Of a stretch of 64,000 nt of DNA, positions 2,201-59,067 are shown piece by piece. The notes under the pieces are model-generated. The model was not told the DNA's origin. It saw only the letters and a program-made list of their open reading frames with translations, and made no database searches. The stretch comes from Octopus vulgaris (taxonomy: Eukaryota), in contig OX597819.1 of assembly GCA_951406725.2 (NCBI GenBank), positions 21,018,001 through 21,082,000 of the forward strand. Direction: 5' to 3'. Every line of letters starts with the position of its first letter. Within the stretch, counting starts at the first letter, position 1. The position numbers and the translations under genes were made by a program.

Positions 2201-2547
2201 AAGAAAACTAAAGTCCTCGCTCAACTGGCTGCAATGACCAACTCCCCTGTTTTCAATATCCCCATTCCTGATACACAAGTTGTACTTATCAGTCATATAT
2301 CATATCCGCAAATATTCTTTCCAAGTAAAACACTTCTGAAAAGGCGTACTACAAATAGCTGTGAACCCATCCGGCAAAACGAGCCTTTAAAACCCAAATA
2401 TACAAAGCCAGCAAATTTCCCTATATATATATATATATATATGATAAAGGTAGCTTATTCGCAATTTACGACCGAAAGACAGAAATATAGACGTCACTAA
2501 AGTGATTGAGTGTACTGGTTAGCACCAGGATTTCTAGGCTGGATAAG

Positions 2548-2596
2548 AGCCACTGATGAGCATTAATAAAAATGCGAAACCACGGGTGATATAGCT
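2548..2596 (+). ncRNA. Type I hammerhead ribozyme motif, degenerate stems I and III
   Basis: agcca CTGATGA gcat-taataaaa-atgc GAAA ccacgggtga TA tagct; intact core, perfect stem II, one mismatch each in stems I and III; lies about 100 bp after a (TA)n tract. Confidence 0.65.
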
Positions 2597-2714
2597 ACGT
2601 GCCAGACATGGCAAGGATCACGCCTCCTTTGTCAGTCTTGAGGTAAGTGCTTTATTTTGGCTAAGAGCTATGTCTTAGCCACAATAGTAGCGACGTCCAC
2701 ACACACCCACACAT

Positions 2715-49770: not shown

Positions 49771-49830
<60 letters not shown>

Positions 49831-49932
49831 GGAATATAATAAGTACTAATAATACTGATTTAATTAATAACAATAATAACACAAATAATAAATTCTACCA
49901 ACCGAACTTGCAATCAACATTTTTTAGACCAA

Positions 49933-52220
49933 GTGGAGAGAAATGAGGGCACACGTTGGAACGTACAGGAGAAACCCAAAGTCATTAACTTATCAAAGAA
50001 AACTCTATCCATAACAAAAATCAATATACTAGCCAATGGTTTAAAGTTCACCCCAACCCCACGAAGAGCTAATCACAATGAAATTAAAGACAATATTTCA
50101 GAATTCTGCAGAAAACTACGACTCGCAGAAGCACTAACTGACTACGAGAACGATGATGAATCACTAGTCAAAAACAGAAGTAATTACCTCCCACATAAGG
50201 GTAGGAATAAAACACTGGATGACTACTGCAACCATATCCAAAATTTCCCCTACACATCCATTAAACGAAAAATTAATCCTAACCACAGCAATCTAGAATG
50301 GAAAAATCTGACTGAACTTAAAAACGACACAGACCTGACAATTAAAGACGCTGACAAAGGAAGTGCTGTAGTTCTGATGAACACTATAAAAAAACTAGTA
50401 CTTTCCATATTAGAAAACGAGGCCTTCTACGAAAAAATTATAAACTATAAACAACAAAAACCATGAAAAATCTTGCATCCTTAATTCTTCAACATGGAAA
50501 AGGCCTGACAGAAAAAGAAACAGACTAAATCACGAACTTCAAATGTAAACCCAGACTTTTTATGGCCTCCCTAAATTACACAAGAGCAAGATAATCAATG
50601 AAGCCTGCAAACAATCACCAGGCAAATATATAAACATCCAAACGCCAGAAGACTTGACTTTAAGACCCATTGCAGCTGGGCCAGCCTGTGAAACCTACCG
50701 ACTGAGCAATTTTCTACACATCCTACTGAAACCCTTGCTGAAATACATCAAAAGCTTTATTAGGGATGATTTAGACATGTTAGAACACCTACCAAAAACG
50801 ATTAATGAAGAGGCAGTATTTGTCACCCTCGATGTTATCAATCGTTACACCAACATCCCTCATGACTATGGAATAAAAGCAATTAAATTCTGGTTGAAAA
50901 AGTACCCCGAAGTCCTCCCGGAACGCATAAGCCAGATCTTTATTATTGAATCCTTAACATTTATACTTCAGAACAATTATTTCCTATTTGATGACACATA
51001 ATATCATCAGAAATGCGGAATTGCGATGGGGACGAAAGCAGCTCCTGTTCTTGCGAACCTAATAATGGGTTATTTTGAATGAATTCACCTTATATGAAGT
51101 ATCATTTCAGAAATATGGTTACCCATTTTACCTTTACATAACAGAAAATTGGAAGCGATACCTGGATGACTGTTTTATCATCTGGAAGAAGAACATCGAC
51201 AAATTTTTGGATTTCAAAACAACACTAAATGACATAAATAGTAACATTCAATTCACAATGGAATATAATAAAGAAAAACTTCCATTTTTAGACATCATGA
51301 TAAAAAAAGTCAACGATGAAATCATAACTGACATTTATTATGAACCAACTAACTCAAAACAATATCTTCTGTTTAACTCATGCAACCCGAAACACATAAA
51401 ATTAAACATCCCTTTTAACTTAGCAAAAAGGATCTGCACAATAGTGTCTGATAGAACAACTCGGGACCTTCGTCTTCAAGACCTCAAAACATCACTTATT
51501 GAAAGACAATATCCACCCTCTCTTATCGACGAGGGAATTAAACGTGCCAAACAATTAGACAGAAAATCACTAAGAACAAAAAAACATAGCACCACACCTC
51601 AAACCAAAACATTACTATTTATATCAACACATAACCCCAGAAACAGTGATGCATTCAACACTATTGTGCAAACTCTTCCTTTACTAACTAGATATCCAAA
51701 AATGAACGACATCCTGAAAACACACAAACTCATCAAATGCAAAAAACAAGATAAATCGCTAAAGAGACTACTAACAAATGCGAAGCTTTACAAAACAGCC
51801 ACGAAACCAACGGTTGAAAAGTGTGGACGCCCGAACTGTGGAACCTGCCCCAACCTGCTTGAAGGCTCGGATTTCCTTTTCAAACAAGGACAGAGGTTCA
51901 CAATTAAAACTAGTTTCATCTGTGCCTATGAGAATCTAATTTATGTAATAACCTGCTCGGGTTGCAGTCATCAGTACATTGGACAAACGAGTTTAACTTT
52001 GAGGAAGAGAATCACTCTACATAAGGAGCAAATCCGTTTCCCGCAATACAGACAAATTCCTCTTAGTGAACACATAGAAAAAAGTGCAGGTAACATCAAA
52101 CCAAATTTTACAGTCTTCCCTTTCTACCAGTACAAAGACACAATCTCTCAACTAGAACGCTTAAATAAAGAAACTTTTTTCATCGAAAAATATAAAACGC
52201 GTCTTAATAAGCACGCATAA
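49933..52220 (+). pseudogene. PLE reverse transcriptase / GIY-YIG endonuclease, disrupted
   Basis: VINLS, GLKFTPTP, IKDADKGSAVV, LRPI, TLDVINRYTNIPH, GIAMGTKAAPVLANL, WKRYLDDCF, LPFLDI, CGRPNCGTC, NLIYVITCSGCSHQYIGQT; several stops and frameshifts. Confidence 0.95.
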
Positions 52221-52497
52221 CCACCTTTTATATTTTTACATATTACATCACTGTACATAAATCCCCTACTAAACAAGGTTCCTTTTTTAAACTTGTCTCC
52301 TTTCTGTACACATATTTATTCCCCACCCAAAACCTAAACAGTTATCTCCCTTACACACAACAATAACAATAATAACAACCAATTACCTTCCTTTACTTGT
52401 CAACTTGTAAAATCATTCACTCGTGAATTTCATTACAAACAACATGGACCAATTTTCTTCTTAAGAAAAAATATATATTCATATAAATTAAACATTA

Positions 52498-52530
52498 TAT
52501 CATGAATAGCGATGGCGAAACCGGTCGATA
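52498..52530 (+). ncRNA. Minimal hammerhead motif, A3:U8 core variant
   Basis: tatc ATGAATA gc-gatg-gc GAAA ccgg TC gata; perfect stems I and II, palindromic ACCGGT, GUC triplet; about 280 bp downstream of the PLE stop. Confidence 0.85.
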
Positions 52531-52647
52531 CATTAAAAATTATATTATAACCATGTAAGTGTCCGTATTTTCCTATGTTAATTTCTTATATGTATTACAA
52601 TCCACCACGTGGGGACAACCAAAATTCCTCTTTTTTGTTACTACTAC

Positions 52648-52704
<57 letters not shown>

Positions 52705-52785
52705 CGAATTGCTAAACCATTCAATAATCTGGATCATGAAAAGAAAACGAAGCGGGTCCTGAAAGAGCCGAACAAGGCGTCGCGC

Positions 52786-52833
52786 TAAACTGATGAAGTA
52801 AAAGATGCTGTCGAAACTGACGTCAGTATTAAG
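52786..52833 (+). ncRNA. Hammerhead motif with long palindromic stem III
   Basis: taaa CTGATGA agtaaaagatgctgtc GAAA ctgacgtcag TA ttaag; stems I and II are weak. Confidence 0.6.
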
Positions 52834-53961
52834 AATTCTCGATTGGCATTTATCGGACAATTATGGTCCTTGTTAGTGTATATGTTTTCATTCATGTGCG
52901 TTTACTACAGCATTAGAACGGTTTAGCTCTTATTTCTAGTAATGTAGGTGTTTGCTACCTCCCTAACTATATTTAGTGACAATTATATGTAAATGTGAAG
53001 AGCGACGAGGTGAGAGAGTGAAGCAAATGGAAGAAGTGAGGGAGAGAAACGTAAGTTTACATGCAATTATGTTGAACTGTATTAATAAATTGCTGCTATT
53101 TTATATTAATATATTAATTTCTGTAGCATCAACTTAGAAATAATGGCTGATTTGTTCATAGAATGTCCATCTTATTTGCCATCGATTGAAGTGTCTCACA
53201 TACACAGACTAAAGAAAAAGCACACAGATTTACATACACACACACACACACACGTACGTAGATACACACACTCCCGCATACAAGCAAATACACACACACG
53301 TACGTAGACACATACTCTTTTCTGTCTACTGTTTCTCCGCTCCCGCCTCTTTTTCCGTTTTGTACACACACGTAGTTTACAGATACAAATTATCACGCGT
53401 CTTCAACCGATTCTTCTTCTATATCTTTCTGCCTGTCTTCCTGCTTCTTTGTTTGTTTGTGCGTGTGTGTGTGTGTGTGTGTCTCTCTCTCTCTCTCACT
53501 CTTCGTTCTTCTTATTCCCAAGCTCTTGTATGTTCTTTATGTCTTCCACTGTCTCTTTGTCTTTTTTCCCTCTTAATCTCTCTAACATACACACAATATG
53601 ATGCTATCGAATAGAAACGAAAAACTGCAACATGCACAACCACACATTCAAACGCAAGCAATAGTAACAACGCCAACGCGCACTTTCTTTCACAGCTACA
53701 TATTACTACACACACATACGCACATTATGATACACCACACAAACGTGTAGCAAATCATACACACACACACACACACACACACACGTGTACACATTACCCA
53801 ACATACTCTCATACGTACACAACTATGTCACCATAGTTCCAGTTTTTCCATTAAGCTATCAAAATTCAAAATTATTTCTGCCAGACATTAAGAAATTTCC
53901 GAACGACGACTACTGCTGCCGCCGTTGTTGTATTTATTGCTTTTGTGATTATTATTATTAT

Positions 53962-57503: not shown

Positions 57504-57850
57504 GAAATGAAGAAAATGCTGACAAAATAATTTTAGTAAGGGGGAGTGTATTTAATTAGGTGAAAGTTCTTTTTACCGGTTGCGCATTTGTTATGCTTAT
57601 CAAAAATATTGTCTTAAGAGAGATAGAGTTCCTTTCTGATAGATTTTTTTTCTCTTACAAGAGAAAAAAATCTATCAGAAAGGAACTCTATCTCTCTTAA
57701 AAAATATCTTTTGATAAGCATAACAAATGCGCAACCGGTATAAAGAACTTTCACCTAATTAAATACACTCTCCCTTACTTAAATTATTTTGTCAGCATTT
57801 ATTTTATTTCCTTTTTTTATATATCACAACTCGTGTTCCACATCTCCTTT
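57501..57850. mobile_element. 313-bp near-perfect palindrome with inverted HHR-like pair and tail
   Basis: Arms 57501-57656 / 57659-57813; (TA)n on both sides. Confidence 0.9.
57569..57745. ncRNA. Pair of hammerhead-like motifs, U3:A8 plus C13 variant
   Basis: TTGATAA gcat-aacaa-atgc GCAA ccgg TA in both arms (minus 57569-57606 with ttt/aaa stem I; plus 57707-57745). Confidence 0.65.
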
Positions 57851-58220: not shown

Positions 58221-58539
58221 GGCGATCAACCAGACTATCGGATGTTGTTGTACATCGCTTGTCACATTGCGCCTTGCATCGTTTTAGGTTTGGGATGATG
58301 CCACCCTGCAAGTTATGATGGCGGTTGGTAAAACGAATTTTGGAATTCCCCACCCAACATTTCCTCGTAAAGGATTGATTAATATGCACCTTACAACAAT
58401 TTATTGTGTGATTCCTCACGTTAGATTGCTTTCATGCATAAATTGTTAACAATTATCGGTATCTCTCTCTATATATATTTATCTAACTCACGCTATGTAC
58501 GTGTGAGGAGGGTGCGTGCGTGTGTGTGTATGTTTGTGT

Positions 58540-58860
58540 GTTCAAAATTCCATTTCAAACATGGACAGAGGTTCATAATTAAGATTGGTTTCGCCTGTGA
58601 ATCCAAAAATGTAAATCACGTGATAACTTGTTCAGGTTGTGGCCTCAACTATATATGTCAAATAAAGACGTCTCTCAGACGGAGAATGCACTTCATAAGG
58701 AACCGATGCGCTTCCCAAGTTATAGAGACATACTATTAAACGAAAGCAAAGATGTATGGAGAATCTCCAAATTTCACTGGGGGTTTTTTTTTCCGATTTA
58801 TCAACACGAAGTAAGAATTTCTATGCAACGATGATTAAATAAAGGGAATATACATATAAA
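58540..58860 (+). mobile_element. PLE GIY-YIG domain relic
   Basis: FHFKHGQRFIIKIGFACESKNVNHVITCSGCGLNYICQ is homologous to 51870-52000. Confidence 0.85.
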
Positions 58861-59067
58861 AAAGAATAGAAATCGCACCAGAGTATGAACACATGTCTAA
58901 TTTTCGATATTGTTATGTCATGAAAATTAGCAACAATCGGTTGACCATACTAATATAAGCAGCAACCTGGTGTTAACTCTTTAAAACATATGTACATTCT
59001 GTGCATTGTCCTTCTTTTTACTACACACACACAGATGTATATATGTGAGTGTATCTATCTATCTATC

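What the first reader, a model, noticed from the sequence alone, without database searches (positions are those of the whole stretch)
49829..52650. Penelope-like element physically linked to a 33-nt A3:U8 hammerhead
Seen: RT, Cys-rich linker (CGRPNCGTC) and GIY-YIG ORF with few lesions, followed by a perfectly paired ultra-minimal HHR with a non-canonical core. This ties the variant ribozyme to a formerly autonomous element. Inference: elements of this type are candidate mobilisers of the HHR fragments elsewhere in the window. The Cys-rich linker suggests the Neptune group.
Basis: partly seen in the sequence, partly recalled or inferred. Interest (0 to 1): 0.7.

Follow-up and report, generated by a model that had tools for sequence, protein, structure and literature searches.

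The report
Octopus retrotransposon hammerhead, swapped core pair
A broken copy of a very abundant Penelope-type jumping gene, probably from an octopus, carries the small self-cutting RNA motif such elements normally have, but with one core base pair reversed in a way not seen in its relatives, and whether it still cuts is untested.

Summary
49829-52650 is a dead, 5'-truncated Neptune-type Penelope-like element (PLE) inserted in (TA)n, with 3 frameshifts and 2 stops. A minimal type I hammerhead lies 282 nt after its stop codon. It is the best window hit of a model built only from relatives (E 0.0012). A hammerhead at this place is standard PLE anatomy, and its size is matched in relatives. The unusual part is the A3:U8 core pair: 0 of 58 model matches in 84 related loci, 0 of 56 and 0 of 34 published rows. 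Contigs of four DNA-type runs imply that A3:U8 is inherited rather than private, but the table was cut at 40 of 109 rows, so a C:G or U:A sister subfamily is not excluded. Cleavage is untested; one mutational scan found only G:C rescued this pair. Other hammerhead fragments in the window belong to unrelated families, so the mobiliser idea is not supported. The main catalogue of PLE hammerhead variants could not be read. Verdict: new variant of a known kind, modest interest.

The parts
49829..52650 (+). Single, 5'-truncated, inactive Neptune-type PLE copy inserted in (TA)n; no upstream terminal repeat
49829..49946 (+). Remnant: last ~30 Asn-rich codons of an upstream ORF1 (inferred from relatives)
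49920..49926 (+). U-UUU-UUA slippery heptamer at the ORF1/RT junction, as in relatives; one base out of phase with the RT frame in this copy
49951..52220 (+). RT-thumb-linker-EN reading frame in four frame pieces, 3 frameshifts and 2 stops; 57% identical to full-length P0080, 78% to P0075
51159..51170 (+). RT catalytic YLDD
51822..51848 (+). CX4CXXC Zn-finger-like linker (CGRPNCGTC)
51921..52217 (+). GIY-YIG endonuclease with CCHH motif and conserved R, E, N
52476..52482 (+). Heptamer perfectly complementary to the core strand 52502-52508; forms a competing hairpin
52498..52530 (+). Minimal type I hammerhead motif; A3=52502, U8=52507, stem II 52509-52516, palindrome for helix III 52520-52525, predicted cut between 52526 and 52527
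52531..52650 (+). 3' tail after the hammerhead, weakly alignable to the tails of relatives, which lead into the ORF1 start of the next tandem unit

Best explanation
This is a decayed copy of a high-copy cephalopod (probably octopus) Neptune-type PLE family whose ordinary 3' minimal hammerhead has an inherited A3:U8 core pair in place of C3:G8. In an active parent, a tandem unit is transcribed from the upstream pseudo-LTR. Two hammerhead copies pair through the ACCGGU palindrome to build helix III. A3 pairs with U8 and holds the 2'-OH of position 8 at the active site (established hammerhead chemistry, recalled), and the RNA is cut slowly after C17, probably only as a dimer and with help from the element's protein. 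RT-EN is made by a -1 frameshift from ORF1, nicks (TA)n and copies the RNA by target-primed reverse transcription. Shown: domains, lesions, motif, homology to the relatives' hammerheads, high copy presence in four runs. Inferred: family-level A3:U8, dimer, protein help, frameshifting, cleavage itself. This copy has one hammerhead, no 5' repeat and a broken ORF, and is most likely inert.
For: A model from 22 relatives' motifs, without the window, ranks it first in 64 kb. In those relatives the 3:8 pair is paired in 22 of 22 (17 C:G, 5 U:A), and the stems covary (score 0.845 against 0.216 shuffled, 0 of 500; slid controls 0.07-0.17). The family is abundant: 2632, 2593, 1208 and 1774 contigs were laid in four runs labelled organisms A-D. 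Letters private to this copy show as rows with a share of 0.8-1.0 in all four runs (20 rows in 896 nt); 52502 and 52507 are not among the 40 printed rows, whose lowest maximum share is 0.776, while neighbours 52482, 52496, 52514 and 52531 are. Two private hits that also form a pair have a chance of about 1e-4 at 2-4% divergence. The only printed change inside the motif is in loop II (52514), and the majority letter at 52531 lengthens stem I by one pair. The double-hammerhead fold scores -11.3 kcal/mol against +4.5 for the monomer. Dimer need, low in vitro rates and a natural U3:A8 variant are published; protein-assisted cleavage and partial G3:C8 rescue were shown for an anole PLE.
Against: 69 of 109 difference rows were not printed, and the hidden rows include the change types that C3:G8 or U3:A8 would need, so up to about three quarters of the depth could carry another pair. 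No second copy's hammerhead was read letter by letter. In a pairwise scan of a type III hammerhead only the G:C swap rescued; all other double mutants in this region had low activity (PMC9901934). Competing folds beat the hammerhead in prediction, for the monomer (-7.5 kcal/mol hairpin, z -0.31) and the dimer (-15.0 against -11.3). For the anole PLE, cleavage was not needed for insertion in vitro, and no RNA-seq ends mapped to the cut site.
Confidence: 0.55

Rival explanations
1. A3:U8 is family-level but the motif no longer cuts. It is kept as a folded RNA element (protein binding, packaging, priming) or merely carried along, and the pair arose in one template-switch event from the neighbouring quasi-palindrome.
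For: The window copy is the only one of 30 motifs tested with a perfect 7-nt complement to its core strand within 60 nt upstream. A:U needs two transversions from either C:G or U:A. Low activity of this double mutant in one scan; cleavage dispensable in vitro in another PLE.
Against: In three of four runs the majority letter at 52482 does not pair with A3 (shares 0.65-0.79). A 7-mer match in such AT-rich DNA has about a 2% chance (my estimate, no call), and the hairpin is not unusually stable (z -0.31). All other core letters are canonical.
Confidence: 0.25
2. A3:U8 marks only the subfamily of this copy. A sister subfamily, prevailing in organisms B-D, carries U3:A8 or C3:G8.
For: Sites 52482 and 52496 split the runs (other-letter share 0.30-0.35 in X1, 0.65-0.83 in the rest), so two subfamilies are laid together; hidden rows include A>T, T>A, A>C and T>G changes.
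Against: Subfamily-marking sites on both sides (52496, 52514) reach 0.83-0.87 and were printed; linked changes at 52502 and 52507 should have reached similar shares. One organism-B contig joins at 52501 and runs on for 30 letters, which fits A at 52502 (weak, one contig).
Confidence: 0.15
3. A3 and U8 are post-insertion mutations of this copy, or the motif is a chance match.
For: The copy has about 2-4% private changes; the bare pattern arises in 10 of 100 shuffles; no Rfam hit.
Against: Private letters show up at shares near 1.0 and these two do not. Position, model rank and homology to the L001/L011 tails exclude chance.
Confidence: 0.05

Closest known systems
Minimal hammerheads (min-HHR) of metazoan Penelope-like elements, including the U3-A8 variant of Schistosoma mansoni (Cervera and De la Pena 2014, PMC4209133; read: main text parts 1-2 of 4, supplement parts 1-2 of 3)
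   Same: Type I topology, place in the 3' repeat of a PLE, G10.1-C11.1, palindromic helix III, AU-rich flanks, a paired 3:8 position.
   Different: The pair is A3:U8; the 56-row alignment has 53 C:G, 2 U:A, 1 U:G and no A:U (my count). Stem II has 2 bp and no bulged base after A9, as in C3:G8 relatives found here.
Neptune clade of EN+ PLEs (as described in Craig et al. 2021, PMC8557442; read: passages, supplement parts 1, 2, 54 of 59 and one search)
   Same: C-terminal GIY-YIG with CCHH, CX2-5CXXC linker with a long spacer, (TA)n target, 3' hammerhead.
   Different: No tree with named Neptune references was built. Relatives here show ORF1 plus a -1 frameshift; the paper's Fig. 1 legend mentions such an optional ORF1, but I could not see for which clade.
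Natural hammerhead core variants (Perreault et al. 2011, PMC3088659; read: passages)
   Same: Covariation at C3:G8 in nature.
   Different: Only U3:A8 is named in the passages seen; no purine-3/pyrimidine-8 pair.
Protein-assisted hammerhead of the anole Poseidon element PAc (PMC11167929; read: passages)
   Same: PLE-borne minimal hammerhead; the 3:8 swap G3:C8 partly rescues.
   Different: Other PLE clade, canonical C3:G8; A3:U8 was not among the mutants in the passages seen.

Membership tests
EN+ Penelope-like element | PLE-type RT with GxKF, DKG and core motifs | tested here: met
   GLKFTP, DKG, YLDD; 57% over 751 aa to P0080, which hits RVT_1
EN+ Penelope-like element | GIY-YIG endonuclease in the same ORF | tested here: met
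   PF01541 E 6.6e-7; same frame as RT motif 5 and thumb
EN+ Penelope-like element | Pseudo-LTRs at both ends (tandem arrangement) | tested here: not met
   No terminal direct repeat in this 5'-truncated copy; present in relative L001. Truncated copies with only the 3' hammerhead are common.
Neptune clade | C-terminal EN (excludes Naiad and Chlamys) | tested here: met
Neptune clade | CX2-5CXXC linker plus CCHH (excludes Penelope/Poseidon and Hydra) | tested here: met
   C253, C258, C261; C286, C297/C300, H319, H336 invariant or nearly so in 23 sequences
Neptune clade | Long linker spacer (Neptune) rather than short (Nematis) | tested here: met
   24 residues between CXXC and the next Cys; compared by eye with Fig. 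S2 rows
Neptune clade | RT phylogeny with named reference elements | not testable with these tools
   No named references among stored sequences; the tree holds unnamed relatives only and is a quick tree. Neptune is itself paraphyletic.
Minimal type I hammerhead | Core U4 G5 A6 A9, G12 A13 A14, A15.1-U16.1, H17 | tested here: met
Minimal type I hammerhead | Watson-Crick pair at 3:8 (consensus C3:G8) | tested here: met
   Paired as A:U; the consensus letters C3 and G8 themselves are not met
Minimal type I hammerhead | Stems I and II and palindromic helix III | tested here: met
   4 bp, 2 bp, ACCGGU; covariation in relatives. Not favoured in predicted folding, as for 10 of 29 relatives' motifs with a stem I probability under 0.1.
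Minimal type I hammerhead | Conserved across copies of the family | tested here: inconclusive
   Indirect support; 69 of 109 rows hidden
Minimal type I hammerhead | Self-cleavage after position 17 | not testable with these tools
   Needs an assay; only contigs were laid, which cannot show RNA ends

The most novel reading that the evidence does not exclude
A3:U8 is fixed across thousands of copies in several octopod genomes and still cleaves as a protein-assisted dimer. It would be a natural purine-3/pyrimidine-8 hammerhead core in an animal retrotransposon, reached through an unpaired intermediate or one template switch, and direct evidence that PLE hammerheads are selected for the catalytic fold and not for sequence.
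Probability: 0.3. Interest if true: 0.55.

Novelty: new variant of a known kind. Interest (0 to 1): 0.36.

Why it matters
What PLE hammerheads do is still open: they cut poorly in vitro, and one element inserted without cleavage. A double transversion that restores the tertiary 3:8 pair, if fixed in a successful family, is a natural compensatory experiment on whether the catalytic fold is under selection. It also matters for searches: descriptors fixed on CUGAnGA or UUGAnAA miss such a family. The gain is a third natural letter pair at a position already known to covary, not a new ribozyme class or a new element type.

Tried and rejected
No whole genome is held, so copies could not be tallied. 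Rfam: no hammerhead among the 150 printed of 384 window matches or the 11 matches in 52400-52900. Viral contigs: no relative of the protein and no exact motif match. No A3:U8 pattern in the 84 loci. Run search: no RNA holder listed; not used as evidence. Earlier scan notes: nothing by sequence or place. Literature: searches for A3-U8, C3A/G8U and AUGAnUA with hammerhead found no natural A3:U8 report; octopus + Penelope + hammerhead found none; the 2026 O. vulgaris repeat paper has no hammerhead mention and no motif in its one supplement file. Lunse et al. 2017 and Przybilski and Hammann 2007 are not held. Rejected: a splice donor at 52555 as a conserved intron (none of the 18 relative motifs printed has one within 150 nt); the upstream hairpin as a conserved regulator; Naiad, Hydra, Poseidon and Nematis as the clade; the motif at 52784-52834 as this element's dimer partner (different palindrome, beyond the (TA)n tract). 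The careful tree did not finish. The atlas gave no usable hit for a relative's ORF1.

Full report
Observation. The stretch 49829-52650 lies on the + strand between two (TA)n tracts. [quoted passage not shown] A frameshift-aware alignment to P0080 (757 aa, 57%) and P0075 (78%) places three frameshifts near 50458, 50550 and 51080-89, stops at 50526 and 50999, and a two-codon deletion near 50386. There is no terminal repeat. The closest named proteins are from Octopus sinensis (66-80% over three segments), O. bimaculoides and Argonauta, so the host is probably an octopus (inference).

The motif. 282 nt after the stop codon lies a type I hammerhead shape: stem I 52498-52501 with 52527-52530, core A3-U-G-A-A-U8-A9 at 52502-52508, a 2-bp stem II, GAAA, the palindrome ACCGGU, and C17 at 52526. 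The bare descriptor is not strong evidence: 10 of 100 shuffles give the pattern, and 2 of 20 block shuffles give an A3:U8 hit. I therefore built a covariance model from 22 relatives' motifs, leaving the window out; these rows came from my own descriptor scan, so their pairing is partly selected for. The window motif ranks first of 16 matches in 64 kb (26.4 bits, rough E 0.0012). In the 22 rows the stems covary well above shuffled and slid controls, and the 3:8 pair is 17 C:G and 5 U:A. Rfam has no matching model.

Relatives. Scans gave 80 metagenome loci (the best 80 of 148) and 4 loci from genome contigs. The model finds 58 matches in these 84 loci: 47 C:G, 10 aligned as U:A (one is really U:G), 1 C:U, none A:U. 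L001, L011 and L073 have the same 25-nt core length and the same helix III, with C3:G8, and their tails align weakly with the window's. So the small size is a trait of this subclade, and only the 3:8 pair is odd. In a quick tree of 84 rows the window groups with P0001 (support 100) inside a clade of proteins without DNA. The nearest loci with a known motif are all C:G, and U:A is scattered over several branches. A3:U8 is thus probably derived (inference).

Is A3:U8 inherited? No genome was held. I laid contigs of 4 of 24 listed runs, labelled organisms A-D, on 51750-52645. 1208-2632 contigs were laid per run. Summed depth over the motif was 9,200-203,898 against 2.5-79 for single long pieces, which points to very many copies, though it is no copy number. 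Of 109 difference rows 40 were printed. Their lowest maximum share is 0.776, which I take as the print cut-off (inferred). Twenty rows have a share of 0.8 or more in all four runs: the private changes of this copy, about 2% of sites. Neither 52502 nor 52507 is printed, while 52482, 52496, 52514 and 52531 are. Two private hits that happen to pair would have a chance near 1e-4. The only printed change inside the motif is in loop II, and the majority letter at 52531 adds a pair to stem I; that so few rows fall in 33 nt is not significant by itself (P 0.56). So A3:U8 is very likely shared by many copies. The hidden 69 rows include the change types needed for C:G or U:A, and two subfamilies are visibly mixed, so a sister subfamily with another pair remains possible.

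Folding. The monomer is not predicted to fold as a hammerhead (+4.5 kcal/mol). A double hammerhead through the palindrome scores -11.3, but a competing dimer scores -15.0. A heptamer at 52476-52482 complements the whole core strand; this is so in 1 of 30 motifs tested, yet the fold is no more stable than shuffles (z -0.31), and the majority letter at 52482 in three runs breaks the pair with A3. It offers a possible one-step template-switch origin for the double change, which I cannot test.

Mechanism. Most likely the parent family works like other EN+ PLEs. A tandem unit is transcribed from the upstream pseudo-LTR, two hammerheads pair by their palindromes, and the RNA is cut slowly after C17, perhaps only with the element's protein. 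RT-EN then nicks (TA)n and copies the RNA. Dimer need and low rates are published for PLE motifs (PMC4209133; PMC6765202 passages). Protein assistance, partial G3:C8 rescue, dispensability for insertion in vitro and a lack of RNA-seq ends at the site are published for an anole element (PMC11167929 passages). For A3:U8 the data disagree. A pairwise scan of a type III hammerhead found only G:C rescued (PMC9901934 passages). Przybilski and Hammann 2007 reported, as I recall without having read it here, that any Watson-Crick pair kept activity in two ribozymes, with a context-dependent preference for pyrimidine-3/purine-8; PMC3088659 cites it for activity of covarying pairs. This copy has one motif, no 5' repeat and a broken ORF, and is probably inert.

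Clade. Domain order excludes Naiad, CCHH excludes Hydra, the linker excludes Penelope/Poseidon, and the 24-residue spacer fits Neptune rather than Nematis rows by eye. No tree with named references was possible. In 25 of 31 relatives with enough upstream DNA, a slippery heptamer sits in -1 geometry before the RT frame, mostly at the end of a long ORF1; 3 of the 25 are doubtful. L001 is a full repeat-ORF1-ORF2-repeat unit. The window keeps the heptamer at 49920 and about 30 ORF1 codons, so it is truncated inside ORF1.

The mobiliser idea. Other hammerhead-like pieces lie at 2547 (+), 16048 (-), 30808 (-), 52784 (+), 57609 (-) and 59263 (+). They have C3:G8 or U3:A8 cores, other stems, and no BLAST similarity to this element's 3' end. 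They come from other PLE families. PMC3846280 reports no cross-mobilisation between PLE types (passages).

Novelty. A 3' hammerhead in a PLE is the rule, and U3:A8 is published. A3:U8 is absent from 56 rows of PMC4209133 Fig. S3 and 34 rows of PMC8557442 File S2 (my counts), and from searches. Lunse et al. 2017, the main catalogue of such variants, could not be read and may hold it; supplements of the 2026 retrozyme preprint (read: part 1 of 5) are closed. Verdict: a new variant of a known kind, interest 0.36.

Noticed in passing
L001:71-3648 and 30 other loci; window 49920-49926: Neptune-like relatives have an upstream ORF1 (about 130-550 codons, R/N/Q-rich end) joined to RT-EN at a conserved slippery heptamer in -1 geometry (25 of 31 loci, 3 doubtful). 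L001's ORF1 has no convincing Pfam or atlas hit. The literature seen calls EN+ PLEs single-ORF but a figure legend mentions an optional frameshifted ORF1.
   Followed up: partly
window 52784-52834 (+): Second hammerhead-like motif with C3:G8 and a longer palindromic helix III, just past the 3' (TA)n tract; stub of another PLE family.
   Followed up: partly
window 57568-57609 (-): U3:A8 minimal hammerhead with one damaged core base, directly after a long perfect hairpin of about 88 nt ending near 57612.
   Followed up: partly
window 59263 (+), 30808 (-), 16048 (-): Three related stubs with a two-base helix III; two share U instead of A at core position 6.
   Followed up: no
window 2547-2597 (+): C3:G8 hammerhead-like motif with a long helix III.
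   Followed up: no
window 58518-58864 (+): Decayed linker-EN fragment of a related PLE subfamily, 76% identical over 92 nt; no hammerhead found behind it.
   Followed up: partly
L022:1525-1568: Relative with an unpaired C3:U8 core, one step from A3:U8; single copy, may be decay.
   Followed up: no
L081-L084: PLEs inside bacterial genome bins, most likely eukaryotic contamination.
   Followed up: no
P0064, P0070: Octopus gene models ('myb-like protein D', 'uncharacterized') that are pieces of this PLE family.
   Followed up: partly
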